A stretch of DNA of 64,000 nucleotides from Takakia lepidozioides (lineage: Eukaryota > Plantae > Bryophyta), in the NCBI GenBank assembly GCA_030704615.1, contig CM060733.1, positions 25,792,001 through 25,856,000 of the forward strand, in the 5' to 3' direction. Below, piece by piece: positions 7,809 through 56,354 of this stretch (position 1 is the first letter of the stretch; every line of letters begins with the position of its first letter). The position numbers were made by a program, and so were the translations under genes. The notes under the pieces were generated by a model. The model was not told the origin of the DNA. It ran no database searches and saw only the letters and a program-made list of their open reading frames with translations.

Positions 7809-7954
7809 GTTCGTTCTAGCTTGCCCATTCTCATCTGTGAGGGTTGTTGTGAATCAGAAAAGAGGTCGATAAGTTCGAAGCCTGCCATGGTTTTTTGAAA
7901 CATAGAAGACAAGGCTGGTGGGTATTTCAGAGACTTTCATAAGAACTGGAGGAG

Positions 7955-9739: not shown

Positions 9740-12337
9740 CAGAGAATGGTGGTGCCAGCTACCTTGTCACCCAAAGTGACATCCACTTCCAGGGCTGCCT
9801 TGAAATACATATCCACCAAGGCAGTGTTTAGAGTGACAACTCCAGCTTTGACGATGTCATCATGGACCCTTTTGATGGCTGCCAGGCTCACATTTGACGT
9901 AGATGTACACCAGGGGAATGTTCAGAATGACATCTGGTACAATTCCAGCTTGGATAATGTCACCATAAACCTCTTTGCCCCTTCCCAGGGCTGCTAGGCT
10001 CGCATATGCATATTACAAAAAACAAATGAACATGACGGTCTGGTCTGGCTTCATCCCTTCCCACATCATTTGCTCTTATGTTTCCAAAGCCTTAATCCCA
10101 TACCCATGCTGCACATACCTTGCAATCATGGCACTCCAAAATACCACAACTCGTTCAGCTATATTGTCAAACTCTCCCTTCACATCAGGCTTGCTGCACC
10201 CACATTTGGCATACATGTCCACCAAGGCAAAGTTCAGAATGACAATTTCCCCTTTAACGATCGGCATAAGCAAGGGGAAGGAGAAAGCAGAGCTACTGCT
10301 CTCTCCCAGCGCCAAAAAAACCAAAAGAAAAAAAAATGGAGGGGCTGAGAGAGCCGCCATGGCTGTGAAGTACCAGTATGCTGCAACGTGATGTGGTTGG
10401 GCTTCACCCCTTCACAATCTCCAAAGCCTCCTTGCCAACCCAGTATATAAACAGAGTACACATAAGTTCCGTGCTTTGCATCCTCAATGCACCCACATTG
10501 GGCATACATGTCCACCAGGGCAGAGTTCAGAATGACATCTGGTACAATTCCAGCTTTGACAATGTCAACATAGACCTCTTTGACCTTTTCCAGGGCTGCC
10601 AAGCTTGCATAAGCATTGCAATCACACAAAAACGTGATGTGGTTGGGGCTTCACCCCTTTCCCCATCATTTGATCATAGGTCTCCAAATCCACAATCCCA
10701 CGCCCTGCTCTGCATACCCTGCGATGCTTGTGAGTGTGTACCTGCTTTCCAGCTTCCAGACCTTTTTGGCATGAATCCACATCATTTGTTGGCATTAGGA
10801 AAGGGTTGAGACTGAGCTGCTCAACTACTCCCTGGTCTTACATAGTGGGTTTACATAGTGTGCCAAGCACAACATCTGGAGCCAAAGCCTCCATCCAGTG
10901 CCCCTGCTGTGCATACCCTGCAAGCATCGAGTTCTACGACACCACATCAGCTCTGACAATGTTGCCATGGGCCTCTTTGCCCTTTTCCAGGGCTGCCAGG
11001 CTTGCACACGCACTGCAACCGCACACAAACCTGATCAGCCCAAAACCAATGGCCAGCCTCTCACTATGGTGGCAAAGAGAAAATTCCTTTTCCTCCTCCC
11101 CCACATCATGCAATACAAAGCGCGTATCAGACACATACCCCGCCTCCTTTCATCTGCCCAGACAATCTTCTCAGCTCAGCATGGATTTCCTTAATTGGGA
11201 TGCAACTTGTCATCTATAGCAAGGTGTGCAACCTGTTGCCAACCCCAATGCAGCAGCGACCTGGCTGCTTTCTAACCCTTCTGACCTTCATCATTCTTCT
11301 CACCTTTGCAGTATCATCCCACCTGCTAGCTGCAGCATACATGTTTGATACTAACACATAAGTCACAACATCGTGTTGATCCCATTTGAGGATAGATGTT
11401 GCCGCACGTTCAGCCATCTCCACATTGCCATGGATTTTGCAGGCACCAAGCAAGGCCTTCCACACCACAAGATCTGGATTGATTGGCATCTTATCAATCA
11501 GATCCACTGCCTCATCCAGTTGTCCCGCATATCCAAGAAGGTCCACCATACAGCCAAAGTGCTTGACTGTCGGAGTGACACCATGATCTTGATTTTATTC
11601 ATTCAGTAGGCCAGTGTGGCTACATGCAGAGAGAACACATATAAAGGTGAGACTGTCCGGCTTCAAGCCATTCTTTTGCATTTCCTTCAAATAGTTGCAG
11701 GACCTCCCTATGACCATGCTGGGCATATCCTACGATCATCGCATTCCACGACACCACATTTCGTTCAGCCATATCGTCGAACACTCCCTACGCATCCTCA
11801 ATGCACCCACATTTGGCATACATGTCCACGAGGTATTGTTCATAATCACATCTGGTACAATTCTAGCTTTGGCGATGCAACCATGCACCTCTTTGCCCTT
11901 TCCCAGGGCTGCCAAGCCTGCACACGCACTGCAAACACACACAAACGCGATGTGGTTGCGCTTCACCCCTTCCACCATCATTTGCTCATAGGTCTCCAAG
12001 GCCTCCATCCCGCCCTCCTGTAGTGCATACCCTGCAAGCATGGCGTTCCATGACACCAAATCTCGTTCAGCCATATTGTTGAACACTCCCTCCACGTCCT
12101 CAATGCCCACATTTGACATGTATGTCCCCGAGGGTGTTGTTCAGAATCACATCTGGTACAATTCCAGCTTTGACGATGCAACAATGGACCTTATTGCCCT
12201 TTTCCAGGGCTGTCAGGCTTGCACAAGCATTGCAAACGCACACAAAGTGATGTTGCGCTTCACCCCCTCCCCCATCATTTGCTCATAGGTCTCCAAGGCC
12301 TCCATCCCGTGCCCCGTTGTGCATATCCTGCAAGCAT
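9740..12337 (-). pseudogene. PLS-class PPR pseudogene mosaic with E/E+ and truncated DYW domains, followed by further scrambled PPR fragments
   Basis: Repeats LVDMYAKCG, DVVSWNAMLAGYA, GVKPNHITF; E domain WKALLGACKIHGN..YVLVSNMYA..RW; DYW start [28 protein letters not shown]. Many frameshifts. Confidence 0.92.
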
Positions 12338-13296
12338 TGTCGAGCGGCTTTTACTCACCCATCCCTTCGCTATCCGAGGTGGAAACTCCAAGATAGAAGA
12401 GTTGCATATCTCTAAGCACTCAACCCGCTCAGAACAATCAGTCCTGACCTACAGCTAGTGAATCATGGTTGTGCTTCCTATTTGTATTCCTTCTTGCCTT
12501 CATGTTATCAATTTACCTTACCGTGTATACTGAAACATCAGATTGCTTTAGTATCTACTAAGTTCCAGTTAATCATGCATTCATTCCACAGCTTCTCTCA
12601 TGTCTCTCTACACAGTATGTTTGTATCGATTCAGTATCGCATTAAGATTAATCATGTATCATGCCTATGCCATGGTGTCCCTAATCTACCCTACTGTATA
12701 ATTTTACAGCTTGCATGAATTAAGCCTCAATCAAGTCATCATCTCCTCTTCACTGTTTCCGCTCTCCGTTACATCTCCTCCTCTCCTGAACAAGTCGCCC
12801 TCCTCAAGAAGTGATCCTCTTCCTGTTGCCGCCCTGCCTAATCTACCCGCAAGCTATTCTAACCACCTAACTAACTAACCGTCACCCCTGAAGTAACACG
12901 TTCCCGCTGTAGATGTCGTTCCCACACAGTCGTTCCCTGTCAATGATAATTGTTCCTCATGTACACTGTGACAGGCTGTGTCAAGCTGTGCCGAGCTGTG
13001 ACTGGCTATGTAAAGCTGTGTCGAGTTGTGACTGGTTGTGCGAAGCTGTGTCGGGCTGTGTCAGACTGTGTCTTGTTGTGATAGACTGTGACGGGCTGTG
13101 TAAAGCTGTGTCGGGCTGTGTCAGACTGTGTCTGGCTGTGATAGACTGTGACAAGCTGTCTACCCCCCTTAAAGCCTGCGCCTGCCACCCCTAAGGCTCC
13201 TGTTGGTCTCAGTCTACCATTCATAAGTCTGTGCAAAAATTAAGGGTACCCCACAGAACCCGTAAAAGCGTCTAAGTCCCAAGCAGCCCTCTAACA
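12338..13296 (-). repeat. 3' LTR of element A (959 bp), with internal GCTGTG/CTGTGAC repeats
   Basis: Near-identical to 52316-53104; TGT..ACA termini; polypurine tract adjacent at about 13297-13313. Confidence 0.93.
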
Positions 13297-13334
13297 TTAC
13301 CCCTCCCCCTCTCAAAAAGCCGTGTCCTCACGGT

Positions 13335-16268
13335 TTACTGTTTGGGATCAGCAAACCTTTGTGAGCGAGCACCCTTCTGTCGGTGAGAGTCTCGTGAAGG
13401 ACTCCGTATGCAAGCCCGAGTCCTATCACTGGCTGATGGAGGCGATTGAGCACTACCTGGAAATGTCTGACTTGGCTGATAACGAGGTAACCTCTCAGGC
13501 ATAGGAGATCCCCGTCGTTTCTTCTCTGCCATCTGAAGTGCATAGTCCTCTACCATGTCAAAAGAGTCCTATGAAGAACTAGTAGTATCAGAATCCTCGT
13601 CCCTCCTTAGGTGTTTTAACGGCCGAACTTTAAGTGTCTTCTCGGGAATCCTGCGTGGCATACAATGTGGGCCCACCATGTCTGGAAATTTAAACTATAC
13701 GACTTGTTGTAAGCGCTTGCAAGCAAAATTAGTGAACGCCCTGAACTCCTTAGCCGTATAGGTGAGAGGTGTGCCAATGACTTTGGAACAGTGTAAGTAT
13801 TTCCAGGCTTCATGTCCCTTAAAGAAAATATCATCAGGGCCAAATTTCTCGGTTGCCAAATTGTTCCAAGCCGAATTAAACCATGAACGAAGTTGGGAAT
13901 CCTTCTGCATCATAACTTTTGCATCATACAGGTAAATATGAGGTGACACTGAAAGTAAGACCCAATGATCCCCACTGGAATAACTCAGAAATCGTGATTG
14001 CATCTTCTGCTGCTCAATGTGATAACGTGCCATAAAACAAGCAGCATAGTATAATCCACAACCCATGACAATACTAGATACCTCATTGGTCTTGGTATAG
14101 ATGTACCAATGTACAACCTGGAAGGCAATTAATTCCTTCAGCATGGTACCTGCCTCAGACCAGTACCTTGCAAAGTGATGATCCTCAATGGGTCGATTGT
14201 TCGGAAGAACCTTAGTCCGAGTTGCCACTAGCAACCAAATGCGCATGATCTGGTAGTAATGTGCCAACGACTACGGAGGTCTAAATTCCTTCCAAGCCAA
14301 ATCCAGCACAATGGGAATTTGGTTGAAGGGCATAATCATAGCCCGACTGTACTCCCGTGCAGCAGGAGTCATAGGTGGGTTAAAAGCAGCATCCCCCCAT
14401 ACCTCAGGCTGTGGTTTTGTTGTAGTAGCAACATGGTCAACTACCTGCACAGGCACCTGCTGTGGTATTGGTACCACTGGCCCTTCTACCACTGGCATCT
14501 CCTGCACCCCCTGCAAAGAAGACTGAAAAATTAGAGTCCTGGCATGTAAATAAGTAGCCATCAGCTGCTCCTCACGAACAAAGACTCTCTTGTCAATATT
14601 TGAACTCAGGTCATCCACTTAAGTCTGCAGGCCTTCCACATCCTCCTGTAGCTCCGCTATCCTACTATAGACATTGTCTATAGTAGTTGTGGCAATGTTC
14701 TGCACTTGCAATCTGAGCTCATTCATCTCGCCCTGGGTGAGCTTCCTTGGTGCTTTGCCTTCTATCGGCCCTTGTGCTAACCATACCTGTATAAGGTGGT
14801 TATCCACCAAGTCCTGTGTGGCACCTCTGAGAGTCTGCTCCTCCGTGAATCTGTACACATCTAACTGCTGCTGTAAAGCCTCCATGCGCTTCGCATGAGG
14901 TTCAACCAGGCCCGCATAGGCAGCAGCCAGATTATTGGCTTCCTTCCAAGCCTTGTTAGCCGCAGAGAGTTCATTTCTATTGACCATGACTATTTGTTGC
15001 AACTCCAGGATGTACCTCTCCTGGTCAGCCTCAACCTGTCTGTACTGTTGGAAAGTATTCTCATTGCGACAGATTGTAGCCTGCAAATCAACAATGAGTT
15101 TCCCTTGCTCTATTATCTCAGCTTCTGCCATCATACATCCCTCCCCTTGTCTGTTAACTTCTAATGCAGTTGGCTCTAGAGCAGTTGTTAGTGTAGCACA
15201 TTGTATGGTCATCCTCTAATGTACTGCCTCCAACTCTGTATGTAGTACGTTCACTTCTTGCAACTTGCCCTCATGCTTCACCTGCAATTGATATAACTGT
15301 TGCTTATGTGCTTCATGCAACTGGTCCTGCTCGAGACCTCCTTCAATCAAATGTCCCTTAGCCAATTACAAGGCAACCTTTGTGTCCTCCAACTCTTGCT
15401 GTAACTTGAGATTGATCTCCTCATCTATCTTGTTAGCACACTCAGTGGCAATTCGAGTCTCAAACTCCTTCCTGAGTTCCTCCCTCAAAGCTGCCAATTG
15501 GGTAGATGGAACATGGGATTTCACATAAGTGCCCAACAAATTGAGTGTCATGCTTATGGAACTCATAAGCATGGCCTCCTGGAGGTCATCATGGTAAACT
15601 TGCTGCTTTTCTCCCTGATCCTCCACAGTGTGATGCTTCACCAACCATTCAGGCCATTGCCCCACCAGATCCTCTTCCTGAACCACCTCATCCTCCACAG
15701 GTGCTGCAGTGTCCTTATATTCTACCCCTAGTACCTCCGTCACAGGTGTGGGTATTACATGCACAGCAGGGATTTCCCTGGACAAACTCTGCACCTCTGG
15801 TACCACTGATTCCCTGACCAAGCCAGAGTTTTCATAGAGAAGGTCACCCTTCTCAATTTCTGCCACGACCTGCTCTGTAGTGGGAATGTCCAACCCTTCT
15901 CTTTCTAGAGCAATAGGCTCTGGTGGAACAGCATGTACTAACTGAGGTACCTCTGAGACAACCAATTCAACTGGCTATGATGGCTGTGGTACCGAAGTGA
16001 CTTCTTCTTTCCTCTCCAAAGGTCATGTTTTTAGTAATAACAGCCCTCTGTGCTGCTGTGCCCCATCCTGCACAAGAGCTTGGGAAACATCATCTTGCGG
16101 CTTTCTTGAAGCCAGTGGATCCGCCACTACAGTCATACCCCTCTTCTGTCTCTTAGACTGGTGTTGTTCTGCCAGTCCACCCTCACTATGTGAAAAACCC
16201 TGCTCCTCCATTGCAGTGGTTGCTGCCTCAAACACTCCCATCTCCTTACATTCTCGCGCATCAAGTAT
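13335..16268 (-). pseudogene. Element A accessory ORF, C-terminal part (coiled coil plus unknown globular domain), with stops
   Basis: ORFs 16023-16271, 15366-15965, 14619-15212, 14271-14618, 13695-14267 and 13335-13556 are collinear homologs of 42034-45000. Confidence 0.85.
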
Positions 16269-17687
16269 CACTACAAGATATGAGCGTTTTTAGGACTACA
16301 GCTTTGGCGGAGTCATAAAAACTGCACTAGGTACATGACTACAGAGCGCTGAAATGCATTACAGTTTTAGTTTTATGACTTTGTAGTAATGGATATCACT
16401 ACATGACTCCGGAAAGTTAGGGAGCATTGGTCAAACATTGTTGACCATGATGACAGGGATGGTTTATATGACTAGTGTGATATGTTTGACTACACGTGGA
16501 CGACGTTTCATGGAATCTTACGACTCCATGACTGAAGATGGTTTCAGAGCTCTATTTATATGACTACATCACTACACGTGTCATTTTGAAGGCACATATA
16601 ATGCAAATAAGGTTGCCCATTAGGTTTAAAAAAGTTAAAAAATTTGTTAATAAGGTTGCCCATTAGTGTAATCGTGAACAGAAAGGAGGGCTGGGACTTG
16701 GCGTTTTTTTGTCTCCTGCGCCACACCACATAGCTGAGGGATGGAACGCGATGATAGCAGGATATGCAGGGGCGTGGGATGGAGGCGTTGAGCAAATGAT
16801 GCACGAAGGAGAAGAGGAGGAGGAGACGAGACGAGGAGAAGCGAGCTCGCCGTTCTTGGGAGAGTCAGCTTGGTCTTAGCAAGCGTGTTTCAATCTCTGA
16901 CTACTCATGTACGCCGTAGTGGTTCGATCTGACAGACCAATCCGACATTACCTGACTACAGACACAAGCAGCACACACAAGAGGTCATTGGTCAAATCCT
17001 CCATGGGTCAGGACAGGTCAAGGACAATGTGGTAGGGTACCTTCTTCTTCAACCTATTTCAGCCTGTGTTGCCCTCTCATCAGACTCGGCCGCAAGATGC
17101 ATATTGAATTCTGTAAGTTAGGTCGTTGGGTAGATCTGTGGTGGTTTGGAGTGACTTTGGCAAGTTACTGCCAGTGTGGCAGCAGGGAAGTATCCAAAAA
17201 CATATAATAGAGGTGAGGAGAAGCTTTGGGGTGAACACTTTCCGACCCCAATGGTGGGACAATGGAGACAAAAAGGCGAATGCCTGTTGGACTACAGAGA
17301 GAAGCAGATGCATTTCAGATTGTGATAAGTAGGGTTGGGGTGTTTTGGGGAAGAACTCCACACCAGTATGGTTGGGGTGTTTGCTGGTAGAATTGTAGGC
17401 TGTCAGAGGCATGGATAGCCGAAGGAGCAGGGATAGAGTGTGGGTCCAGATTCATCCAAGAGGGCTGGATTTCAAGCTCCACATTACCTATGATTCCCTG
17501 TGGAAGGATAGTTACAAGAAACCTACATGGGTAGATGGTCAACTGGAAGCGGCATGCTGTACTATATGTCATTACTGTACTATATGTCATTCCAGAGACT
17601 GTCATTGTTGGTCCATGTGTTTTACAACAATGCTATCACTATAAGACTTCTGGTTCGCATTGGAAGCTCAATCCCTGTAAGTTCATT

Positions 17688-17796
17688 GTGTGTGAAGCTC
17701 AAACTTGTGATTTGAAGGATCTTGTAGCCAAGTTCATTCAACCGGAAAGGAAAAATTCTGAAAGCTCCCAAATTTGATGTGGGCAAGCTTATGGAG
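17688..17796 (+). pseudogene. RPS3A: Captured fragment of 40S ribosomal protein S3a (eS1)
   Basis: EAQTCDLKDLVAKFI ... KILKAPKFDVGKLME followed by a GTAAG donor; matches the eS1 C-terminus. Confidence 0.85.
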
Positions 17797-18404
17797 GTAA
17801 GACTTAGCTTCCCTCCTCTAATGTAAGTGTTGGATAAGTTTCATTTAGTGTCGACCTTCACTGCATATATTGGCTCTTTTCTTGGCTGGTTTCATATTTT
17901 CTTGGCTGGTATGCTGTTGGTTGGCTTCTTTCATTTCACGTGTGTAGTGGAAGGGGAGAAGTACTTTCCTAAGTTCTGCTGCAACAATGTCTTTTTCCAG
18001 CCTAGATGTTTTCGATGGATACAAATTGAAGTGCTTTGAATGTTGCTGCAATACTATAATAAAGTGGAGGGTGCTGAATGCAGTTGGCCTTGCTTCGTGC
18101 AGGCATAATCCAAGGAAATGTGGACATAGCTGAAACCCCATGATAGCATTTCCAGAGGACGGTGTGGATGGCCTCACAATCCAGCATGCAAAATCCATGA
18201 CAATGTGGAGCTGGCTGAATGGGCAAACAGGTTAAGTGGCGAACAAGCCATGTCACTGGTACATAGTTGCATGCTTACATAGTACATGAAAGCGTACTAT
18301 ATGTCATTCCCGAAATTGACCATGTTGGTCCATGTATTTTACAACAATGCTATCAATAAAAGACCAATGGTTCGCATTGGAAACTCTATCCCCATAAATG
18401 GCTT

Positions 18405-18540
18405 GTGCGTGATGCTCAAACTTGTGATTTGAAGGATCTTATACCCCAGTTCATTGCAGAGGTGATTGGAAAAGACATTGAGAAGGCAACAGCCGTTATC
18501 TATAATCTACATATCCCCTTCAATTTGATGTGGGAAAGCC
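18405..18540 (+). pseudogene. RPS3A: Second captured RPS3A fragment
   Basis: VRDAQTCDLKDLIPQFIAEVIGKDIEKATAVIY. Confidence 0.82.
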
Positions 18541-21500
18541 GGCTGGCTGGAGGTCTAGTCTCACTTTCACTCATCTAATGTCAGTGTTGTATCCATTGCA
18601 ATGTGGAGATGTTTGAAACAACATTGGAGCATTTCCAGAGGATGGTCTGGATGGCCCTTCATGGCGTGTGCCGAATCCATGGCAAGAAAACATTGCAGGC
18701 AGAACCCATGGCAATGGTACCAGCACGGGTTGGTCCAAAGCCAATTGCAACAACAAATGAATAAAGGGTGCTGAAAGGAAAGCACTCCATAATTGATCAT
18801 AAAATCCAGTGTCCAAGCATGATATCTTAATGGGAATGCGAAGGGAGTGTTACCACCTTAAACTATCATGCATGGTCTATAACTGGAGTGCACAAATCGC
18901 GCATATCTAATCTTCATCATCCTCATCTATGTCTGGGTCACTACATGTATCACTGTCTTCATCACAGACTTGATCTTGTCCAAGGGTTGGCTGAACATCA
19001 TCACCACGTATACGGGGTGCTCGGAGGTACAAGGAGGCCACCTGCTCTGGAGTAACCGGTACCGCTCGGCTGCACCAGAGTCTCCTCTAGTCTTTGTGGG
19101 GCTAACAATCCTTCCACTTCCGCCACATCATCATTATCAATTGATATGTCGCAGACCACTCTACGTGCTCGGGGGCTCTTCTCCAGGACGACTTTCCACC
19201 CCGGCTCCTTCACACAATCAGAAAAAAACACTTGATCAACCTGGCCAGGAAACACAAAAGGTTGCTCAGAAGGTGGAAGCATACGGTTAGAATTGACAAG
19301 TGTGAAGCCAGCATCATCCTGCTTCATTGACATAGGTTGACGACCCGCGGGACTCGCCCGTACCCACGAACACAAAAACACTATAGGCTGCGTTTGGCCA
19401 TAGTCAATTTGCAAAATCTCCCTTATAAGACCCACATATCTTGTAGGTTCCTCCATGTCATTGCCTGAATTGTTGGTAATGGGCTGGTGCTGGAAAACAT
19501 ATGAGACTTCACAATCTAAAGACACCATATTTGTTGTGTTCATGCCGGGGGATGTAACCCTGTAATGGTTACCATACGCTGTCATACTCTTGAATGACAG
19601 GGCAGTAAATGATGGAGGCCTTGAAAGATCCAGTAATTCCTCACGTGTTGTAGGATCAAGCCCATCTGATTGAATTGAGAGATGATCCCGTACACCTTGA
19701 GGGAGCCAAACAGCAAATGGAGGACAAGGATGCAAATCAGGAGGGTACTGAATTGCCGTGGGATTGGTCATGCCTTCCAGCCCTTGCTCCTCACGAAACA
19801 AGCGTCGTCTGGCTTCTATCCGTGTGGACTCTGCTTCATATATCCTGTCAAAATCCGAGGGTCAGCCACGAGATTGACAGAGGTGGCGTGGGAGATTTGA
19901 AAAGACGCCATATGCCAACTAATGATAAATGACTAAAACTTGGAAATCTGAATGTCAATGAAGTAGATTTCTTACCCCAACATGACTGATATACGAGGAT
20001 GGTTCTGAATGATGTACTCATGTACAATATCACACAGGTCATTCAATTTTCGGGCTTTAGAATTTCCTTCCACAACTTCACGTTCCACAGATTCTGCCTC
20101 ATCTACATCCCACACCCTTCGTACACTTCCATCAAATCCTGCCATATACTCTGTGCAAAAACCCAATGCTTCTTCAAATTGGTATCATTTTGCCATGCTC
20201 CCCTCGGACCTTGCCATATTTCTTACGTAGCCCTTCATATCTTTCATTGCCCGCTCCATGTGGTACATCCAACGAGATGCTATAGGCCCGCATAAGTACA
20301 ACTCATCCACTAGGTGAACAACCAGATGTGTCATCACATCAAAAAATGATGGTGGGAACTCCTTCTCTATAAGACACAGAGTGAGAACTACTTCAGTTCT
20401 CAATTCCTCATACTCTACAGGATTCACCACTTTTGCACACAACTTCTTAAATACACGACATACTCGCAAAATGGCCCTTCGAGGACCACTTGGCATGAGC
20501 CCACGGATAGCAAGCGGTATAATTTGCTGCATGAGCACATGATAGTCATGTGATTTCATGCCAGACAACTTCTTCTTCACCACATGCTTTTTGAAAGCTG
20601 ATGCGTAGCCTGTTGGCACTTTCAAGTTCTGCACAATCTCCAGAAAGACTTATAACTCAGCCTCAGTGAGGACATAAGGGGCAGGAGGCATAATTAACGT
20701 ATCTGCTCTATCAGGATCACGTTGTAGCCACAATTCCGGGCGCATCCCAAGTAGCTCCAAATCACGGCGAACTTTCAATGTGTCTTTCTCACCAAAGATA
20801 GTTTTAATAATATTTCCAGCCAAGTTCTTCTCGCAATGCATTGCGTCAAACATGTGGCGGATGAGGAGACCCTACAAAATGAACACATAAGCAATTGAGC
20901 ATTTACTCATCACAATTTAAACAGAAAACGCAAAAATGTACACAGCCAATTTAAAGGCCATGAAGGAATTACCTCCCAATAAGGTAAGACATATAAAATT
21001 GACAATCGCTTAACTCCATGAGTTTTTGTTGGGTCTGTCCTGCTATCTGGCGTCCCTCCGTTTTCCACCCATGCAGTGCGAGCTATTGCAAGGTCCTTGA
21101 TTTGTGTTCCAGTCTGCGTTTTTGGAGGAATTCCATGCTCAGTAGCGCCATTGAACATTCTTGACCTTTTATATGGATGATTGCGGGCCAAAAATCTTCG
21201 GTGGCCTAGGAAAACAATTTTTCCACATGTGTGTAACTGTTGTGAAGTCACCCCGGGTCCACAAGCTGGACAACCAGCATAACCTTTCGTCACTTGACCT
21301 GAGAGCAAGCCATATGCAGGGTAGTCATGGATTGACCACATCAACACTGCCCTCAGTGTGAATTCGCGTTGACCACGAGGACGGGAAACATCATGAGCTG
21401 CAATCCCTCTCCATAGTTCCAGTAGCTCTTCCACTAGGGGCATCAGGTAAACATCTACGTTGTCCGAGATAACAGACTCCTTACCAGGAATCAGTAGCGC

Positions 21501-26723: not shown

Positions 26724-26870
26724 TTTTGTTTGCGTTTGTAGTGCATGTGCGAGCCTGCTGGGGAAGGGCAAAGAGGTCCATGGTTGCATCGTCAAAGCTG
26801 GAATTGTGGCAGATGTCATTCTGAACAATACCCTTGTGGACAGGGAGTGCTCAACAATATGGCTGAGCAA
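26724..26870 (+). pseudogene. Short PPR fragment (cargo)
   Basis: FVCVCSACASLLGKGKEVHGCIVKAGIVADVILNNTLVD. Confidence 0.88.
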
Positions 26871-29800: not shown

Positions 29801-29934
29801 AGCTGCGACTTGTACAAACAGAGAGGCAAACAACATGCAGTGAGTGACGATTAGGTTTGAGGAGGGTGTGTCATTAGGCGGGAGGTGTCCGCCGTCATTC
29901 GTTGGCAGCCATTACGTCCTGGTAGGGTGCGGCT

Positions 29935-41994: not shown

Positions 41995-42033
41995 TTACCC
42001 CTTCCCCTCTCAAAAAAGCCGTGTCCTCACGGT

Positions 42034-46819: not shown

Positions 46820-49550
46820 AAGGTCCTTTCCATGGTGATTTAAGCTTAGAAGCTTTAATCTTTCCCTTCTTCTGCAACCATAGAACCAAATCTCCCGTCT
46901 TAAAAGTCTTTAACTTGCCTTCATCAAACTGTTCCTTCCTCTTCATCTGAATTCTGGTCATATTATCAGCTGCATCAGCACGTACTTCTTCCACATGGTA
47001 TAATTCATGTTTCCTGACCTTAATGGAATCTTGCAATTCCATTCTTCTTCCCCATTCCGTTCTCATGGTAGGTAACAGGAATTCCACTGAAAATAAGGCT
47101 TCCATACCATAAACTAATTGGAATGGTGTATACTTAGTGGTGACTTTATATGAAGTTCTGTATGACCACAAAGCTGTCAGCAGCTTTGTATCCCAATCCG
47201 TTCTGTTTGCATTGACTATCTTAGCCAAGATAGTACATAGTATTTTGTTGGTAGCCTCTGCCTGCCCATTACCCTGTGGGTAATACGTTGTACTCTTCCT
47301 ATGCACAATCATGAATTCTTTAGTCAATAATTCAATGGTCTCATTAATGAAGTGACTTCCCTGATCACTGATAAATTCCAAGGGACAGCCAAATCGTGTA
47401 AGTATGTTCTCATACAGGAACCTTGCTGTGTACTTGGCTGTGTTGTCCCTCAAAGCTTTAGCTTCCACCCACTTCGTAGTATAATCAGTGGCTGTAATTA
47501 TGTACCTGTTTCGTGTATTCTTGGCTGGTGGGTTAATCGGTCCAATAAAGTCTAGTCCCCATTTCTGAAATGGTTCCGTAGGCATTGTAGGATGCAAGGC
47601 CATCCTTCCAGATCTCTGCAAAGGTCTCTGACATTCATCACAACTCTGACAATACTTGTGTACATCTTTGAACAAAGTAGGCCACCAGTAACCTGCGAGT
47701 AGTATCTTTCTACTGGTAGTCTCTTCTCCAAAATGACCTCCAGCCACTCCTTTATGAACTTCCTCCAAAACTTTATTTACTTCATGGTGGTACAAGCATC
47801 GTTTTAGTACTCCATCAGGTCTTAGCTTATACATTCTGCTTCTTACCATAGTATAAGGTAAAGTTTTGATAGCGATTCTCTTCCTCTGCTCCTTACCATA
47901 ACTAGGTGGGCATTGACCATGAGTAAGGTAGTATCTGATTGGCCACTGCCAATCTAACCATTCCTCTGCACTTCTTTGCACCTCCATTACAAATAAACTC
48001 GCATCAGGTAACTGATCGTCTACTCCTGTGGCGGCCTCTCCTGTTGTTAGTCGTGACAAATGATCTGCCACAAGATGCAAACGGCCAGGCTTGTAAACAA
48101 CTTCGAACTCAAACTCATGCAAGATTATTAACCACCTCGCTATCCTTCCACTTATCAAAGGTTTGTTCACCAGATATATCAGAGCCTGGTGATCCACATA
48201 AAACATAAACTTTCTTCCCAATAGGTAATGCCTGAATTTCTTGACTACATAAATCATTGTCAGTGCTTCCCTTTCAGTTGTGCTATAGTTCCTTTCAGCA
48301 CTGTTCATCAACTTGCTAGCATAGTACACAGGTGAATCTATATTTCCTGAAACATTCTGGGCTAACACCGCTCCCAACGCTTCTCCTGATGCATCACAGT
48401 GAACATGAAATACTACATGCCAGTGAGGGTTAATCAGCACAGGTGTAGTTGTTACTGACAATGTAAGTTCCTCAAAAGCCTGTTGACATTCAGCTGTCCA
48501 TGCAAACACTGCATCTTTCTTCAGAAGCTTGCTCAATGGTGCTGCTATTTGTGCATATCTTTTGACAAATCTTCTGTAATAACTGGTTTGCCAAAGGAAT
48601 CTCCTTAGACTCTTAACATTCATTGGTGGTGGAGAGGCTTTAATGGCCTCTGTATTCCTGGGATCCACAAGAAGTCCCTTCTTACACACAATGTGTCCCA
48701 GAAGCATCCCTGAGTTCACACAGAAAGTACACTTCTCTGGATTCAGGCCCAGACCTCTCATCCTGCATCTGGCCAAACATAACTCCAATTTATGCAAGTG
48801 CTCATTCTTAGAGCTGTACACACTGAAATCATCCAAGAACACCTGCATGAAATCATCCAGATACTCATGAAAAGATTCACTTATCACTCTCCGAAAGATT
48901 GCTGGTGCATTACAAAGTCCAAAAGGCATGACTTTGTATGCATAAACACCCCAGTCTGTGATGAAAGCTGTCTTTCCTTGATCTTCTTCTGCCACTTGCA
49001 CTTGATTATAACCACTGAAGCCATTCATGAATGAGTACATCTCATGGCCTGCCACAGTGTCCAATACTGCTTCTGTGAATGGTAAAGGGAAAAGATCTTT
49101 CTTCGTACAAGCATTCAGCTTCTTGTAGTTCACACAAACTCTCAGTTTACCATTCTTCTTGGGAACTATCACAATGGGTGACAACCAAGTTGTATACTCT
49201 ATCGGGTATATAAACTTAGCCTCAGCCAACTTCTTGATCTCTTCCCCAACCTTCTGTGCATAGTTGGGATTCATTTTGTACCTTGCCTGCTTGATTGGTA
49301 CTGACCCTGGTTCCAGTTCAATCTTATGCTGACAGATTTCAGGTGGTATCCCTTTTAGATCCTCATAGCTCCAAGCAAATACATCTGTGTATTTGATGAA
49401 CAAACTCTTAGCTTCTTCAAAGAATTCTAGTTCCAAATCAGCTCCTACCTTCACCATCCTCGGTTCCTCTTTAGTTCCCACACTCATTTCCCTCACTTGC
49501 TCATCAGCTGTGATTGTCCAACCAGTCACCACTTCATCCTGTAAACTCAC
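46800..49550 (-). CDS. pol: Element B pol (RT-RNase H-integrase), 916-aa open segment
   Basis: Canonical gypsy motifs, ending WKGPY. Confidence 0.95.
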   Translation of the reverse strand: MSLQDEVVTGWTITADEQVREMSVGTKEEPRMVKVGADLELEFFEEAKSLFIKYTDVFAWSYEDLKGIPPEICQHKIELEPGSVPIKQARYKMNPNYAQKVGEEIKKLAEAKFIYPIEYTTWLSPIVIVPKKNGKLRVCVNYKKLNACTKKDLFPLPFTEAVLDTVAGHEMYSFMNGFSGYNQVQVAEEDQGKTAFITDWGVYAYKVMPFGLCNAPAIFRRVISESFHEYLDDFMQVFLDDFSVYSSKNEHLHKLELCLARCRMRGLGLNPEKCTFCVNSGMLLGHIVCKKGLLVDPRNTEAIKASPPPMNVKSLRRFLWQTSYYRRFVKRYAQIAAPLSKLLKKDAVFAWTAECQQAFEELTLSVTTTPVLINPHWHVVFHVHCDASGEALGAVLAQNVSGNIDSPVYYASKLMNSAERNYSTTEREALTMIYVVKKFRHYLLGRKFMFYVDHQALIYLVNKPLISGRIARWLIILHEFEFEVVYKPGRLHLVADHLSRLTTGEAATGVDDQLPDASLFVMEVQRSAEEWLDWQWPIRYYLTHGQCPPSYGKEQRKRIAIKTLPYTMVRSRMYKLRPDGVLKRCLYHHEVNKVLEEVHKGVAGGHFGEETTSRKILLAGYWWPTLFKDVHKYCQSCDECQRPLQRSGRMALHPTMPTEPFQKWGLDFIGPINPPAKNTRNRYIITATDYTTKWVEAKALRDNTAKYTARFLYENILTRFGCPLEFISDQGSHFINETIELLTKEFMIVHRKSTTYYPQGNGQAEATNKILCTILAKIVNANRTDWDTKLLTALWSYRTSYKVTTKYTPFQLVYGMEALFSVEFLLPTMRTEWGRRMELQDSIKVRKHELYHVEEVRADAADNMTRIQMKRKEQFDEGKLKTFKTGDLVLWLQKKGKIKASKLKSPWKGPYVIQDV

Positions 49551-52315
49551 AGTGGCTGGTTCCTATAGGATTTCCATTTCTCCTTCTCTTTCTTCATAGA
49601 AATGTGATGGGTAACTGCTGGTCTCCTCTTTGCTTGGTGTTGCTGACACTACACCACAGCAGATACCTTTTAAACAACTTAGGCTTTCCAGCCGCATCTC
49701 TGCAACCTGCTCCCACTCTCGGTGTGCAGCAAATAGGGTAGCTTCCTGCTCCTCATCCAGTCCTCCTCTCTAGTCATACTCTCTGACCCCTCGAGGTCTT
49801 CTCGTAGCAGGTAATCTACTAGATTTCTTTGTGGTAATTTGTATCTCGTGTATCCCATTATGCACGGTTAGTAACTGAGATTTCCAGTCATGGAATACCC
49901 TGGCCTGTTTCAGCCATGGACGTCCCAATAATAAGGAGTAAGCCTCCATGACTTCATCCATCTTTTGCACAGTTACTATGATCATAAAGATCATCTTCTG
50001 TATCTGTATCCTAACTCCTCTTATTAATCCCAATGGCTGTACACTTCTTTGATCTGCCATTGTTACTGTAAATGGGGCCGGTTTCATGTTACTTAGACCA
50101 AGCTTCTTTCTTAATTGGTCTGTCATGATATTTACTCCAGAGCCTCCATCTATCAGTACATCAGTTAGTTCTGTGCTTCCAATTCTCAATTGGATTACTG
50201 GCATAGAATCATCAAAGTCCATGACTGTTTCTCGCCCTTCCGACTTCACATTATAACTGGTCACCTTGCTGTTCAGGTCTGTGTTTCCTGTCTCCTGGGC
50301 AATTCGATTGATTGCTTGATACAGCCTGTGCCTACAATAAGGTGCCACAGCCAATAGCTGTCCAATGGTAATCTCTGCTTTGGTCTGGCATATTACTTCA
50401 GCCAAAGTCTCTTCATTACTTTGCATGTCTGCATCTTCTTTCTTCCTTTCATCCTTACTCACTTCTTCTTCTCCATCAGAATCAGTGGAATCTGCCACAG
50501 GAATATCAGTACTCTTCTGCATTTCCCTTATGGTATCTGCCACTTCCTTGTGCAGTTCCTTCTCCTCTCTCCAAGCCTCATCATCTTCAGGTATATCATT
50601 GCCACCTTCATTATCATCATCTTCCTCAACTACTGGAGGTATTAATTTGGCTTTGCTTCTGGTTACTATCATTGTACTTACTTCTGGTACAACACATGGC
50701 CTAACCATGTGAGCTGCCACCACTGGGCCCTCATTCACATGAGCTCTCATCTCATTTTGGTGTCTTATCCAGAATGAACAGGTTGCCTTGCGATGTCCTG
50801 GCTGATGACAATAGTAACATAGTTCTTCACCATTGGGTCCTCGCCCTTGGTCTGCTCTTGGATTATTTTTGTAATCCTGATTCCCGGGTTGGTAATTCCC
50901 CCTTGGATTACCCTGATAGTTGCCTCTGGAATTTCCTTGGTAATTCCCTCTTGAATTACCTCTCCCTTCCATGCCATTGTTGTAACCACCAGACCTACCA
51001 TAGTGGTCCTGATCATTGTTTCTTCTTGGCTGGGGCTGCACCTGATGCACCCTTACTTGTCTAGGTTCTCTTGCAACTGTCCTTCTGTTGTAGTAACAAT
51101 TCTCAGTAGAATGGTTATCCATTTTACAGATAGTACAGTGTTTCTCCTTCATGTGGCATTCTGTGGTGGTATGGCCTTCATTCTAGCACTTTGCACACCA
51201 TACACCCTTCCTCCAATGTGTTGCAGCCTCTGTGGCATACTTCTTCAAGATTTCTTCCAATCTAAGATCTTCTCCAGCAAAAATATGTTGGCTAATTGGG
51301 CATGGAGAGCAAGGCATCCTTGAAGGTACCTGAGATAAGCATAGAACATCTATAGGGCTTATGAATGCTGAAGTTTTGAGCTAGGCCTCGGTAAGACAGC
51401 TTGCTGGAGTAGACGTGTACACCTAATACATGATCCGGTCAATGCACATTACTCTTGTTTGCCGGTCCCCCGTAGCCGATGCCTTATGTCAGATTTAGAT
51501 ACCTTATGATAAGAATGAGTTCCATTTCTTTGGCTCAAATGTTTCTATGTTTCTCCTGGTTATGGCTTTGCTCTTTATAGCACCATAAAAAATACCCAAT
51601 TATGATATGCTGCTGTCCTCATCATCCCTTTTCTCTCTCCTGAGCATTCCCAATTGCTCAATTCTGTTTGCAGTTTCAAATGCCTCCTCCACTGTATTAT
51701 GGGGTAACATATCCACTTTCTTTTGCAACTCTGGTCTTAATCCACTCACAAACCAAGTCTTCTGTAAACCTGGTGCTGGTACTGCAGCCAGCTTTTTCAT
51801 CATCAATTCCATCTTTTCCATATACTCCTCAACAGTTTCATGCTTCTTTTGCTTTAACTATTGTAAACTTCCATACACTTCATCCTCAGTTTTACTTGTC
51901 CTGAACCTATTTCGGAATGCTGTATTCAAGCCATTCCAGGTTAGGAAATGATTATCAGGGAATCTTGCATACCATTCACTTGCTTTCTTGATAAGTGAAC
52001 AAGGAAACAATCTCATCTTGGCATCATCGCCATTCTCATTGTTCACAATACACATGTGCTCAAATTGGCTAATGTGTACATCAGGATCCCCTTTTCCTGA
52101 ATATATTGGAAAAGGTGGTTTTGCCCGTGTTGGTTGTAACGCCATCTGTGGCCCTACCTTCTGCCCACTGACAGGTGCTGGCACCCTTGCTGGTGCTGGT
52201 CCTTCTGGACCTATTGTTTTTGTGGTGGATCTTCCACCAAGTGGTGGCCCTTGAGCACTCCCTGCTACTGGCCCCACGATATTCATAGTATTCCCAGCTT
52301 CAGTTGCACTACTTG
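49551..52315 (-). pseudogene. gag: Element B gag (retrotransposon gag, two CCHC knuckles) and aspartic protease
   Basis: YSGKGDPDVHISQF..LFPCSL..ASEWY; CTICKMDNHSTENC, CYYCHQPGHRKATC; LIDGGSGVN. Stops present. Confidence 0.92.
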
Positions 52316-53104
52316 CATCAGATTGCTTCAGTATCTACTAAGTTCCAATTAATCATGCATTCATTCCACAGCTTCTCTCATGTCTCTCTACACAGTATGT
52401 TTGTATCGATTCAGTATCGCATTAAGATTAATCATGTATCATGCCTATGCCATGGTGTCCCTATCTACCCTACTGTATAATTTTACAGCTTGCATGAATT
52501 AAGCCTCAATCAAGTCATCATCTCCTCTTCACTATTTCCGCTCTCCGTTACGTCTCCTCCTCTCCTGAACAAGTCGCCCTCCTCAAGAAATGATCCTCTT
52601 CCCGTTGCCGCCCTGCCTAATCTACCCGCAAGCTGTTCTAACCACCTAACTAACTAACCATCACCCCTGAAGTAACACGTTCCCTCTGCAGATGTCGTTC
52701 CCACACAGTCGTTCCCTGTCAATGATATTTGTTCCCTGTGTACACTGTGACAGGTTGTATCAAGCTGTGCCGAGCTGTGACTGGCTGTGTAAAGCTGTGC
52801 CGGGCTGTGACTGGTTGTGCGAAGCTGTGTCGGGCTGTGTCAGACTGTGTTTGGCTGTGATAGACTCTGATGGGCTATGTAAAGCTGTGTCGGGCTGTGA
52901 TTGGCTGTGCGAACCTGTGTCGGCTGTGTCAGACCGTGTCTGGCTGTGATAGACTGTGACAAGTTGTCTACCCCCCTTAAAGCCTGCGCCTGCCACCCCT
53001 AAGGCTCCCGTTGGTCTCAGTCTACCATTCATAAGTCTGCGCAAAAATTAAGGGTACCCCACAGAACCCGTAAAAGCGTCTAAGTCCCAAGTAGCCCTCT
53101 AACA
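52316..53104 (-). repeat. 5' LTR with about 200 bp of its inner end and the primer-binding site deleted
   Basis: Matches 12536-13296 and abuts gag directly at CATCAGA. Confidence 0.92.
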
Positions 53105-54055
53105 AGCATGGCATTCCATGACACCAATTTCGTTCAGCCATATTGTTGAACACTCCCTCCACATTTGGCATACATGCCCAGAGGGTATTGTTCAGAATCA
53201 CATCTGGTACATTTTCAGCTATGACGATGCGACCATGGACCTCTTTGCCTTTTTCCAGGGCTACCAGGCTTGCACACGCACTACAAATGCACAGAAACTT
53301 TATGTGGTTGGGCTTCATCCCTTCCTCCATCATTTGCTCGTAGGTCTCCACAGCCTCCATCCAGCGCCCCTGCTGTGCATATCCTCCAAGCATGGCGTTC
53401 CATGACACCACATCTTGTTCAGCCATATTGTTGAGCACTCCCTCGGCATCCTCAATGCTCCCACAATTGGCATACATGTCCACGAGGGTATTGTTCAGAA
53501 TGACATCTGGTACAATTCCAGCTTTCACGATGCAACCATGCACCTCTTTGCACATGCATTGCAAATGCACACAAACGTGATGTGGTTGGGCTTCACCCCT
53601 TCCCACATCATTTGGTCACAGGTCTCCAAAGCCACTTGCGTGCCACAACACCACCATTTCAGCCATAGCATTGAAAACTGCCTTTGCATCCTCTTTCCCC
53701 TTTTCCAGAGCTGCCAGGCTTGCACATGCATTGCAAACGCACACAAACGTGATGTGGTCGGGCTTCACCCTTCCCCCATCATTTGATCATAGGTCTCCAA
53801 AGCCACCATCCCACATCCCTGCTATGCATACCCTGCAAGCATCGCGTGCCACGACACCACATCTCGTTCAGCCATAGTGTTGAAAACTGCCTTTGCATCC
53901 TTAATGCACTTACATTTGGCATACATGTCGACCAGGGCAGTGTTCAGAATGACATCTTGTACAATTCTAGCTTTCACGATGTCATCATGGACCTCTTTCC
54001 CCTTTTCCAGGGCTCCCAGGCTTGCACATGAATTGCAAACACAAACGAACGTGAT
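53105..54055 (-). pseudogene. Upstream half of the PLS PPR pseudogene
   Basis: TLVDMYANCGSIEDA, DVVSWNAMLGGYAQQG; continuous with 12337 across the TSD. Confidence 0.92.
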
Positions 54056-56165
54056 CCAAGAGGGCTGGACTTCAAGCTCCAGATTACCTATGATTCCATG
54101 TGGATCAATAGCTACAAGAAACCTGCATGGGTAGATGGTCAAGTAAAGGTAGCAGCTGCAGCGGCACAGTTGATAAAATCAAGCACCTCAACCATGACCA
54201 CAGCTTCTGAAAGAGGATCAAGAGAGGGAGTCCACAATGCCTCTTCTGCTGGGCATGTGAAGATGCTTTGTGAGGCAGGCAGACTGACAAAGGCTCTACA
54301 ACTTTAAACTAACAAGGCATTTCAGCAGATTCAGATACGTCTTCTGTCTCTTGCTTAAGTGCATCAAGATGAAAGGTCTAGAAGCTGGAAACAGGTGCAC
54401 ACTCACATTATCCAAAGTGATTAACGCCAAATGTTTTTCTACTCAACACCCTTGTCAACATGTATGTTAAGTGTGGGAGCATCATGGATGCTCACCAGGT
54501 TTTCCACAGAATGCCTCGACCATCTTTGATCACGTGGAATATAACGTTGGCAGGATTTACCAAGCATGGGTGTGGTAGGAATGCTTTGGAGACCTATGAG
54601 CAAATGTGGACCCACACTCTATCCCTGCTCCTTCAGCTATCCATGCCTCGGCACAAATCATGCATACTGCATCCTTGCCTTGCTGCTAGCACCTGACAAT
54701 GAAAGCCTAGATTTGTTCTAGGAAACACCTATCTCAACTTATCACACTAGTTCCTATGGTCAATTGCATCTGCTACTCTGTGTAATCCAACAAGCATTCA
54801 CCTTTTTGCCTCGATTGTCCCGCCATTGCCTGGGGTCAGAAAAGTATCAGAATTCAACATGAAAATTTAGGGCCAATTCTGATAAGAGGGAAAAACAGGG
54901 TGAAATCTGTTGAAGAAGGTACCTTCATTAGCAGTGCCTGATTTTATCAATTGAGCCGCTGGTGCTGTGGCTTCCAGTTCACCATCTACCCATGCAGGTT
55001 TCGTGTAGCTCTCCTTCCACAGGGAATCATAGGTAATCTGGAGCTTGAAATTCGGCCCTCTTGGATGAATCTGGACCCACACTCTATCCCTGCTCCTTCA
55101 GCTATCCTGACCTCTACACAAATCATGCACACATCCTTGCCTTGCTGCAGCTAGCAGCTGAAGCAGCTGACACTGACGTCCTAACCCTACCTACAGTAAC
55201 ATGTCAAAATCACTCCAAAACCACCATAGATCCACCAACGAGCTTCTCCTAATCTATGTTATCTATTTTTGGATACTTTCCTGCTGCCACATCGGCAGTA
55301 ACTTGTCAAAGTCACTCCTAACCACCACAGATCCACCCAACAAGCTAACTTACAGAATTCAATATGCATCTCAGGGCCGAGTCTGATGAGAGGGTAAAAC
55401 AGGCAGAAATAGGTTGAAGAAGAAGGTGCCCTCACCACATTGTCGACCTTGACCTTGTGTCATGACCCATGGAGGATTTGACAGACCATCAACCCAAAGA
55501 TCCTCTTAGTGTGTTGCTTGTGTCCATCGTCAGGGACTGTCGGATTGGTTTGTGAGAACCACCACGGTGCAGCTGAGCAGAGATTGAAACACGGCCTGCT
55601 AAGACCAAGCTCTCTCCCAAGAACCTTGTAAACATCAGGAAGAATACCAAATCATGGTACTAACAGGAGCCAACATCCCACATTTACATGATGGACAAAC
55701 TTCTTCACATCGTACATTAAGAAAAAGCCACACCTTGCGATTGCGGTTGTCTCACCATCGTGAAGGATCTTTAAAAAACTCATGCCTGCTCTGCTCCGTG
55801 CTGCAAATTTAGGGCCGAGTCTGATGAGCGGGCAAAACAGGCTGAAAGACGTCGAAGAAGGTGCCCTCACGACATTGTCCTCGACCTTGTGTCATGACCC
55901 ATCGAGGATCTGACTGACCACCTCTTGTGTGTGCTGCTTGTGTCTGTAGTCAGGTAATGTCGGATTGGTCTGCGAGAACCACCACGATGCAGCTGAGCGG
56001 GCGGAGATTGAAACACGGCCTGCTAAGACCAAGCCGACTCTCCCAAGAACGTTGTAAACATCAGGAAGAATACCAAATCATGGTAATAAGAGCCCACATT
56101 TGCAGGATGGACAAACATCTTCACATCGTACATTAAGAAAAGCCACACCTTGCGATTGCGGTTGT
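54055..56165. repeat. Mosaic of unidentified sequence modules also found at 16.85-17.55, 22.7-22.9 and 26.9-28.0 kb
   Basis: For example ATCCAAGAGGGCTGGA..GGGTAGATGGTC and GACCCAT..AAGACCAAGC..CAGGAAGAATACC recur in both orientations. Confidence 0.85.
54250..54608 (+). pseudogene. N-terminal PPR fragment in the opposite orientation
   Basis: LCEAGRLTKAL; NTLVNMYVKCGSIMDAHQVFHRM..TWN. Confidence 0.85.
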
Positions 56166-56354
56166 CCACCCAAGCTATGCATATCCTGCAGATCCTCCCA
56201 CGCAAACATAGCAAAACGATCAAGTCCCATAACTTTCTCATCGCTGAACGCAATCCCGCAACCCTAAATTCATTTTGAATTATTTGGATGAATGTATCGT
56301 AGATGGATGGATTTTGGGTTTTCCATCAATCTATCCATCCATCCATTTAATTTT

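What the first reader, a model, noticed from the sequence alone, without database searches (positions are those of the whole stretch)
9740..56165. CACTA-associated shuffling of PLS-DYW PPR (RNA-editing factor) repeats
Seen: one PPR family occurs as scrambled fragments at 9.7-12.3, 23.3-24.1, 26.7-26.9, 53.1-54.1 and 54.3-54.6 kb. From 16.9 kb onward they sit among the same non-PPR modules, and two fragments lie inside a TSD-bounded Pack-CACTA. The shared modules appear in the oldest layer and in both CACTA layers. Known: PLS-DYW proteins specify organellar C-to-U editing with one repeat per base. Inference: a Pack-CACTA family may be disseminating and recombining PPR arrays, a possible route to new editing specificities.
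Basis: partly seen in the sequence, partly recalled or inferred. Interest (0 to 1): 0.78.

Follow-up and report, generated by a model that had tools for sequence, protein, structure and literature searches.

The report
Transposons carry broken RNA-editing gene pieces
One broken plant RNA-editing gene was split by a retrotransposon, and two nested DNA transposons carry scrambled, dead pieces of related genes whose front end encodes a motif predicted to bind single-stranded DNA; this is likely ordinary capture from a large gene family rather than a source of new editing enzymes.

Summary
The PPR fragments and both CACTA layers are real, but the picture is simpler than reported. Most of the oldest-layer sequence is one PLS-E-DYW pseudogene, split in register by a 40.8-kb LTR insertion (TSD AGCAT) and one 549-bp inversion. 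The 'non-PPR modules' are that gene family's own 5' exons and introns. They encode OSB-type PDF motifs (reported to bind ssDNA), are spliced in two RNA-type runs, and read in frame into the first PPR helix. Intact 3xPDF-PLS-E proteins exist (one from bracken). This scan already noted PDF-PPR-DYW fusions in peat moss; ten paper searches surfaced no description. An outer transposase-bearing CACTA (TSD TAT) and an inner non-autonomous one (TSD TCT) carry scrambled, stop-ridden PDF/PPR/E pieces without DYW. These pieces are more diverged from the local gene (K mostly 0.09-0.25) than its LTRs are from each other (0.042), so they likely came from paralogs elsewhere. CACTA transport of PPR debris is supported; creation of new editing specificities is not shown. 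No genome was held, so the genome-wide test was not run. The interesting part is the expanded, intron-bearing PDF-PPR-DYW family.

The parts
54603..56190 (-). 5' part of the oldest-layer pseudogene: four PDF-motif units (types A, A, B, B), each split by an intron after the WWDNRxxK half; true start lost
   Evidence: PDF HMM hits; GT..AG intron 55970-56148; spliced joint 55969|55734 in X8 and X9 only
54054..54602 (+). 549-bp inverted segment of the same gene: last PDF exon, linker and first PPR motifs, in frame over 88 codons at 54041-54304
   Evidence: paralog contigs continue as PPR at 54606 (94 contigs in X8)
53105..54053 (-). middle of the P-L-S array, with stops, frameshifts and one internal deletion
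12338..53104 (-). Ty3/gypsy-type LTR complex inserted in the PPR gene (three LTRs, two pol copies), TSD AGCAT
11031..12337 (-). 3' part of the same gene: P-L-S repeats, E motif, PG-box/E+ and the first third of a DYW domain (HSE present, cut before CxxC)
   Evidence: Pfam E_motif 7e-16, DYW_deaminase 6.6e-10 over profile 1-36 of 93
9740..11030 (-). scrambled, deleted PPR pieces after the broken DYW (second copy or filler)
16269..35186 (.). outer CACTA element, TIR CACTACAA.., TSD TAT, inserted in the LTR element
   Evidence: empty-site loose end at 16268 in X5
16741..18656 (+). outer CACTA cargo: PPR scrap, PDF-A, PDF-B, E-motif scraps; the PPR array itself is absent
   Evidence: X5 contigs 11 and 12
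19001..29526 (-). Tnp2/TnpD transposase of the outer CACTA (Transposase_21, DUF4218, DUF4216), interrupted by the inner element
   Evidence: flanks read EYSDDE / DEGPAAQ
22414..28819 (.). inner non-autonomous Pack-CACTA, TIR (C)ACTAGAAGCATTCGTGTC, TSD TCT
   Evidence: empty site in X5 contig 14
22685..24065 (.). inner cargo, left: PDF-A piece (minus), PPR scrap (minus), intron scrap, about three broken PLS triplets (plus)
24066..26713 (.). inner element core of unknown origin; no Pfam hit; low depth in the RNA-type runs
26714..27972 (+). inner cargo, right: PPR scrap then two tandem PDF-B units with 192-nt GT..AG introns (order reversed relative to the gene)
31378..33091 (+). second gene of the outer CACTA: Ptta/En-Spm (Transposase_24) piece and a NIF-like phosphatase ORF
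56216..56914 (.). repeated stretch, near-absent from the RNA-type runs, ending in TGTTGTAGTG with a cluster of 7-mer repeats: possible orphan CACTA end beside the gene's 5' end
   Evidence: no partner end found in the window

Best explanation
The window holds one broken PDF-PLS-E-DYW RNA-editing gene split by an LTR retrotransposon, plus two nested CACTA elements that carry scrambled, broken pieces of the same gene family, likely captured from paralogs elsewhere in the genome. Order of events (shown by TSDs and empty sites): gene, then LTR insertion, then outer CACTA inside the LTR element; the inner Pack-CACTA lies in the outer transposase. Inferred: the family is large and transcribed, so it is a frequent substrate for DNA-level capture (introns kept). 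Each CACTA family captured pieces independently, shuffled and deleted them, and copies them passively as dead cargo. Inferred for the living family: a protein targeted to organelles in which N-terminal PDF motifs would hold the PLS-DYW deaminase on single-stranded nucleic acid at the nucleoid, so that it edits nascent transcripts C-to-U.
For: Nesting, TIRs, TSDs. Empty sites in another sample. One gene in register across the LTR and the inversion. Modules are PDF exons: 9 of 14 HMM domains scored above 0 bits (3.9-20.8), all 9 in modules, against a best of 0.4 in 20 shuffles; 4 of the 9 are exon-1 halves that were not in the query used to find the training proteins. Splicing: joint 55969|55734 in 4 X8 and 3 X9 contigs, 0 in X5 and X6. 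PDF-to-PPR bridge: in frame in the window, X8 contig 20, collinear with P0129 (E 5e-9). Intact 3xPDF-PLS-E proteins P0121 and P0129. Cargo not copied from the local gene after arrival: all 33 of 33 cargo-versus-oldest-layer alignments of 100 bp or more have K 0.073-0.364, against 0.042 for the LTR pair. Cargo is dead. Family abundance: summed X5 depth 245-1340 over PPR/PDF bins against 25-44 over the inner core and transposase; up to 94 distinct RNA-type contigs at one PPR position.
Against: No genome was held, so copy numbers and the share of family members inside CACTAs are unknown; contig depth is stated by the tool to be no copy number, and X5 is a metagenome. X8 and X9 are only guessed to be RNA. 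No single contig shows PDF, PLS and DYW together, and the two intact homologs end at E without DYW. The lowest K (0.073 over 101 sites) cannot be told from 0.042, and an old capture from this locus before the LTR insertion is not excluded. In all three composites a PDF-A piece is the part nearest a CACTA or CACTA-like end, which chance capture does not predict. ssDNA binding, organelle targeting and editing are untested.
Confidence: 0.7

Rival explanations
1. The oldest-layer gene is itself cargo of a third CACTA whose right end is at 56914, so CACTAs move near-full-length PDF-PLS-DYW genes and help expand the family (compatible with most of the best explanation).
For: 56914 ends in TGTTGTAGTG like the outer element; 4 of the window's 11 CAGTCAA/TTGACTG 7-mers lie in 56771-56865 (motif chosen after looking); X5 depth is 29-47 over 56216-56751 and falls to 1.9 past 56886; the gene's 5' end is lost and begins with a PPR scrap joined to PDF-A, as in the outer cargo; introns are 85-89% alike between B copies of the inner and oldest layers.
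Against: No partner left end, TIR match or TSD was found in the window; the end shares no subterminal homology with the other two elements beyond 19 nt; a CACTA that inserted into the gene and excised badly would leave the same trace.
Confidence: 0.25
2. One reading: a Pack-CACTA family recombines PPR arrays and so creates functional editing factors with new specificities.
For: Cargo is rearranged (PPR before PDF, both orientations) and travels with its elements; Pack-CACTAs can form hybrid transcripts (PMC6379663 passages; PMC8903248 passages).
Against: No intact product in the window; cargo has at most 83 stop-free codons and no DYW; the main array of the local gene is in regular P-L-S register, not mosaic in order; a survey of seven early-diverging land plants attributes PPR expansion mainly to retroposition (PMC13386178 section 6).
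Confidence: 0.12
3. Both CACTAs captured their cargo from this very locus (local hopping or gap repair) and are a local accident.
For: Physical closeness (18-40 kb); local hopping and capture of neighbouring DNA are documented for Pack-CACTA.
Against: Cargo is two to three times more diverged from the local gene than the LTRs are from each other over the best long alignments (K 0.112 over 241 sites, 0.113 over 363 sites); near-identical cargo contigs (1 and 7 differences) and the inner core occur in another sample at depth 25-46, with empty sites.
Confidence: 0.1
4. The modules are a non-coding repeat or separate transposon that happens to accompany PPR pieces.
For: No Pfam family matches them; the ESM Atlas and a word-index search gave no named match for the module.
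Against: They match the repeats of an SSB-plus-three-repeat protein (P0124, OSB architecture) and of intact PPR fusions, have canonical introns at one fixed position and are spliced.
Confidence: 0.02

Closest known systems
Pack-CACTA elements (Catoni et al. 2019, PMC6379663; Gisby and Catoni 2022 type survey, PMC8903248; author names of the second recalled)
   Same: CACT(A/G) termini, 3-bp TSD, non-autonomous inner element, captured and rearranged gene fragments with introns.
   Different: Cargo here is from RNA-editing PPR genes (no mention of PPR found in PMC8903248, PMC13317346, PMC13477047); an element that still has transposase genes also carries cargo; mobility was not observed, only inferred from empty sites.
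PLS-class PPR-DYW C-to-U editing factors (DYW:PG type; subtype names recalled)
   Same: P-L-S triplets, E motif, PG-box, HxE start of the DYW domain.
   Different: Extra N-terminal PDF motifs on intron-split exons; this copy is a pseudogene with the DYW cut before CxxC.
OSB1-4 organellar ssDNA-binding proteins (PDF motif; described in PMC6963530, PMC4166229, PMC6451138)
   Same: Tandem ~50-aa PDF motifs, matched by an HMM that includes the repeats of an SSB-plus-PDF protein (P0124).
   Different: The motifs stand before a PPR array, not behind an SSB/OB fold; Pfam found no SSB domain in P0121 or P0129.
Intact 3xPDF-PLS-E proteins P0129 (Pteridium aquilinum transcriptome, EukProt) and P0121 (unnamed Logan record); PDF-PPR-DYW genes noted earlier by this scan in peat moss
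   Same: PDF repeats followed by a linker and a first PPR helix (LCEAG in both the window and P0129).
   Different: P0121 and P0129 are longer, end at E without DYW and are only about 28-48% identical in the aligned parts; the window's family has highly homogeneous repeats and appears much expanded.

Membership tests
Pack-CACTA (inner element 22414-28819) | CACT(A/G) terminal inverted repeats | tested here: met
   22-nt arms, 95%; right end CACTAG intact, left end damaged to AGACTAG
Pack-CACTA (inner element 22414-28819) | 3-bp target-site duplication and an empty site | tested here: met
   TCT on both sides; X5 contig 14 joins 22409 to 28819
Pack-CACTA (inner element 22414-28819) | no own transposase; host gene fragments between the TIRs | tested here: met
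   no transposase Pfam hit in the inner ORFs scanned; 2379 of 6406 bp match the PPR/PDF gene
Pack-CACTA (inner element 22414-28819) | several dispersed copies that carry the cargo | tested here: inconclusive
   one 2.9-kb contig at depth 24.6 bridges core and both PPR scraps in another sample; depth is no copy number and no genome is held
CACTA with transposase (outer element 16269-35186) | TIR, 3-bp TSD, TnpD (Transposase_21) and TnpA-like (Transposase_24) genes | tested here: met
   the transposase is interrupted in this copy
PLS-DYW editing factor | P-L-S triplet array followed by E motifs | tested here: met
PLS-DYW editing factor | complete DYW domain with HxE and CxxC | tested here: not met
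   HSE present, domain cut at profile position 36 of 93; paralog contigs continue past the cut (39 in X8, 26 in X9)
PLS-DYW editing factor | intact reading frame with organelle transit peptide | tested here: not met
   longest stop-free stretch 170 codons; 5' end lost
PLS-DYW editing factor | C-to-U editing of a defined organellar site | not testable with these tools
   needs an intact paralog and an assay
OSB protein | PDF motifs | tested here: met
OSB protein | N-terminal SSB/OB-like domain | tested here: not met
   no SSB hit in P0121 or P0129, present in P0124; the window copy lacks its 5' end, so this rests on the homologs
OSB protein | ssDNA binding by the PDF motif | not testable with these tools
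   reported for AtOSB1 in review passages; not assayed for these motifs
PPR retrogene | intron loss | tested here: not met
   PDF introns are kept in all three layers

The most novel reading that the evidence does not exclude
This plant has a large, expressed family of C-to-U deaminases tethered to organellar single-stranded DNA by OSB-type PDF motifs, and CACTA transposons, not retroposition, spread it: they move near-full-length intron-bearing genes (the oldest-layer gene being such cargo) and occasionally rebuild arrays with new targets.
Probability: 0.15. Interest if true: 0.78.

Novelty: new variant of a known kind. Interest (0 to 1): 0.48.

Why it matters
The CACTA part is an ordinary outcome of gene capture and matters mostly as a caution: PPR counts in such genomes are inflated by transposon-borne debris. 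The PDF-PPR-DYW architecture matters more. If the PDF motifs bind ssDNA as they do in OSB1, editing factors could be anchored at the transcription bubble, which makes the coupling of editing to transcription, or stray deamination of organellar DNA, directly testable by deleting one small domain. Intron-bearing copies also point to DNA-level duplication, against the retroposition model for PPR expansion in early-diverging plants.

Tried and rejected
No whole genome is held, so no genome-wide counts. A first scan for intact CACT(A/G) pairs with TSD missed the inner element because its left end is damaged; the inverted-repeat finder found it. A 12-bp direct repeat at 22521/28222 was considered as a boundary and dropped in favour of the TIR/TSD pair and the empty site. 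Homolog search with Tnp2 gave 987 hits, at most 60% identical among the 120 listed, and did not name the lineage; one cluster holds a Sphagnum record. Word-index search with the PDF-PPR junction: 0 of 225 candidates. ESM Atlas: only PPR clusters or scores under 0.9. P0122 (1 of 4 hits) is a low-complexity repeat protein without the motif and was left out of the HMM. The single metagenome locus L001 is a bacterial oxidoreductase gene, a chance match. No RNA holder was listed for the inner element; this is no evidence on expression. No solved structure matched the PDF part by sequence (only the SSB part of P0124 matched) or by fold (best Z 2.5); a missing match shows nothing about the fold. The AlphaFold model of the P0129 N-terminus gave three separate confident helix-strand-helix domains before the PPR helices (mean pLDDT 80, pTM 0.42), and Foldseek matched PPR structures only. 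No partner end for 56914. Earlier-findings look-ups by place, sequence and CACTA words returned nothing. The original OSB1 paper was not held.
Full report
Scope. The window is plant DNA of about 46% G+C without Ns. No whole genome is held, so evidence beyond the window comes from protein collections, public sequencing-run contigs and papers. The lineage was not determined; the PPR style and the homologs suggest a non-seed land plant (inference).

Layers. Self-comparison and Pfam show a Ty3/gypsy-type LTR complex from 12338 to 53104 with TG..CA ends and the TSD AGCAT. Inside it lies a CACTA element, 16269-35186, with 32-nt TIRs at 88% and TSD TAT; its 18 of 20 terminal matches exceed all 30 shuffles (maximum 16). 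It encodes Transposase_21, DUF4218, DUF4216 and a Transposase_24 piece. A second, non-autonomous element, 22414-28819, has 22-nt TIRs at 95%, TSD TCT and a damaged left end. Its flanks read on as one transposase frame. In DNA run X5, contig 14 joins 22409 to 28819, the empty site, and five contigs leave the window at 16268 with sequence like that beyond 35186.

The oldest layer is mostly one gene. The S-to-P motif spacing of 39 nt seen in three other triplets is kept exactly across the LTR insertion. The segment 54054-54602 is an inversion: at one end it completes an intron-exon junction seen intact at 55040-55110, at the other it rejoins the PPR array with a small loss. In X8, 94 contigs continue as PPR sequence at 54606 instead of following the window. 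Read on the minus strand the gene runs from about 56190 through roughly seven P-L-S triplets to an E motif (Pfam 7e-16), a PG-box and the first 36 of 93 DYW profile positions, where it is cut before the CxxC motif. It is a pseudogene: the longest stop-free stretch in any of its four blocks is 170 codons. Only 9740-11030 is scrambled.

The modules are PDF-motif exons of this family. Their translations resembled the PDF motif of OSB proteins (recalled). A profile of five window stretches searched against 1,835,955,588 representatives gave 4 hits: P0121, three repeats before a long PPR array and E motif; P0124, an SSB domain plus three repeats, the OSB architecture; P0123, repeats only; and P0122, a low-complexity false hit that I dropped. 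An HMM from the 12 repeats of the three true hits reported 14 domains in the window; the 9 with positive scores (3.9-20.8 bits) all fall in modules, and 20 shuffles reached at most 0.4 bits. The exon-2 hits are partly circular, but four hits are exon-1 halves that were not in the query. Each motif is split at the same place by an intron: 179 nt GT..AG at 55970-56148, 192 nt GT..AG in both inner copies, 174 nt GC..AG in the outer copy; the second oldest-layer A intron ends in AA. The joint 55969|55734, which is the spliced junction laid onto the neighbouring tandem copy, stands in 4 contigs of X8 and 3 of X9 and in none of X5 or X6. X8 and X9 are only guessed to be RNA, but they also cover PDF and PPR bins deeply and the transposase bins at depth 0-4. 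One unspliced PDF-B contig also occurs in X9 (record 27). The last PDF exon runs in frame into the first PPR helix (54041-54304). X8 contig 20 bridges this junction in a paralog; X9 contig 27 reaches only the end of the linker. A search with the PDF region of P0121 among long proteins found 3 of 574 candidates, among them P0129, a bracken transcript with 3xPDF-PLS-E that aligns across the same junction (E 5e-9). Against a full claim: no contig holds PDF, PLS and DYW together, and both intact homologs lack DYW; paralog contigs do continue past the DYW break at 11031 (39 in X8, 26 in X9).

The cargo. PPR/PDF-derived sequence makes up 2379 of 6406 bp of the inner element and 891 bp of the left part of the outer one; the right part of the outer element gave no hit. 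The inner cargo is rearranged (both orientations, PPR before PDF); the outer cargo keeps the order PDF-A, PDF-B, E but lacks the array. Stop-free stretches reach 49-83 codons and no E+/DYW sequence was found in either element. All 33 of 33 alignments of 100 bp or more between cargo and the oldest layer have K 0.073-0.364, whereas the LTRs that predate the outer CACTA insertion differ by 0.042; many of the 33 compare non-equivalent repeats, and the lowest value rests on 101 sites. PDF copies are 75-89% identical in all pairings. In X5 the outer cargo contigs 11 and 12 (1 and 7 differences) have depth 45.8 and 39.9, the transposase contigs 36.6 and 37.6, the inner core contig 24.6, while six of eight listed PPR/PDF paralog contigs have 2.6-8.3. 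The tool warns that depth is no copy number and X5 is a metagenome; I take this only as a hint that both elements are multi-copy with their cargo and that the gene family is far more abundant than either.

Mechanism. Shown: nesting order, TSDs, empty sites, one split gene, PDF exons with introns, splicing in paralogs, dead cargo. Inferred: independent DNA-level capture from an abundant family and passive copying (0.7). Pack-CACTA capture and hybrid transcripts are documented (PMC6379663, PMC8903248, passages), and captured fragments usually become pseudogenes (PMC13317346, passages). For the living family I infer that PDF motifs hold the deaminase on single-stranded nucleic acid at the nucleoid. 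This rests on review passages that the PDF motif of AtOSB1 suffices for ssDNA binding (PMC6963530, PMC4166229, PMC6451138) and that many PPR proteins associate with nucleoids (PMC10226603, passages). The predicted model shows three separate small domains before the PPR helices; no fold match was found.

What is known. A 364-genome survey of editing factors reports RRM, MORF and OZ fusions and attributes PPR expansion in early-diverging plants mainly to retroposition; 'OSB' and 'single-stranded' do not occur in its main text (PMC13386178, passages and section 6; supplements not read and may bear on this). Ten searches surfaced no paper on PDF-PPR fusions or on PPR cargo in Pack-CACTAs; most hits were seen only as listings, subscription papers are missing, and the OSB1 paper was not held. 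Two earlier notes of this scan (e1-7304186, e1-7304346) describe PDF-PPR-DYW genes in peat moss and claim a wide family; I reached the PDF reading before seeing them and confirmed only one fern member and one unnamed record.

Verdict. Observation partly confirmed, interpretation partly supported. CACTA transport of PPR debris is a new instance of a known process, and no new editing factor is shown. The expanded, intron-bearing PDF-PLS-DYW family is the better lead, though already seen by this scan. Interest 0.48.

Noticed in passing
window 12338-53104: The LTR complex has three LTRs (12338-13296, 41006-41994, 52316-53104 truncated) and two pol regions (K 0.075); it looks like two related elements fused by recombination in gag (inference).
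   Followed up: partly
window 32186-33091: The outer CACTA holds a NIF/FCP1-like phosphatase ORF (Pfam NIF 4e-11) downstream of the Ptta piece, oriented away from Tnp2.
   Followed up: no
window 24066-26713: Core of the inner Pack-CACTA with ORFs of 112-201 aa and no Pfam match; origin unknown.
   Followed up: partly
window 7942-9525: Tandem array with 137/274-bp period directly left of the PPR debris.
   Followed up: no
window 59175-63917: Mutator-like element remnants: SWIM zinc finger ORF, Ulp1 protease on the opposite strand, a 66-bp tandem repeat.
   Followed up: no
window 56216-56914: Possible orphan CACTA end; an internal CACTACAG at 56766 parallels one at 35100 in the outer element.
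   Followed up: partly
window 28514-28819: RNA-type contigs X8-22 and X9-29 match the right terminus of the inner element at about 85%, so related ends lie in transcripts (if these runs are RNA).
   Followed up: no
window 17275-17450: The PDF-B intron of the outer cargo has a GC donor instead of GT.
   Followed up: no
proteins P0123, P0130: Unnamed JGI proteins made of many PDF-like repeats with no Pfam domain (P0123: six anchored repeats; P0130: about ten by eye).
   Followed up: no
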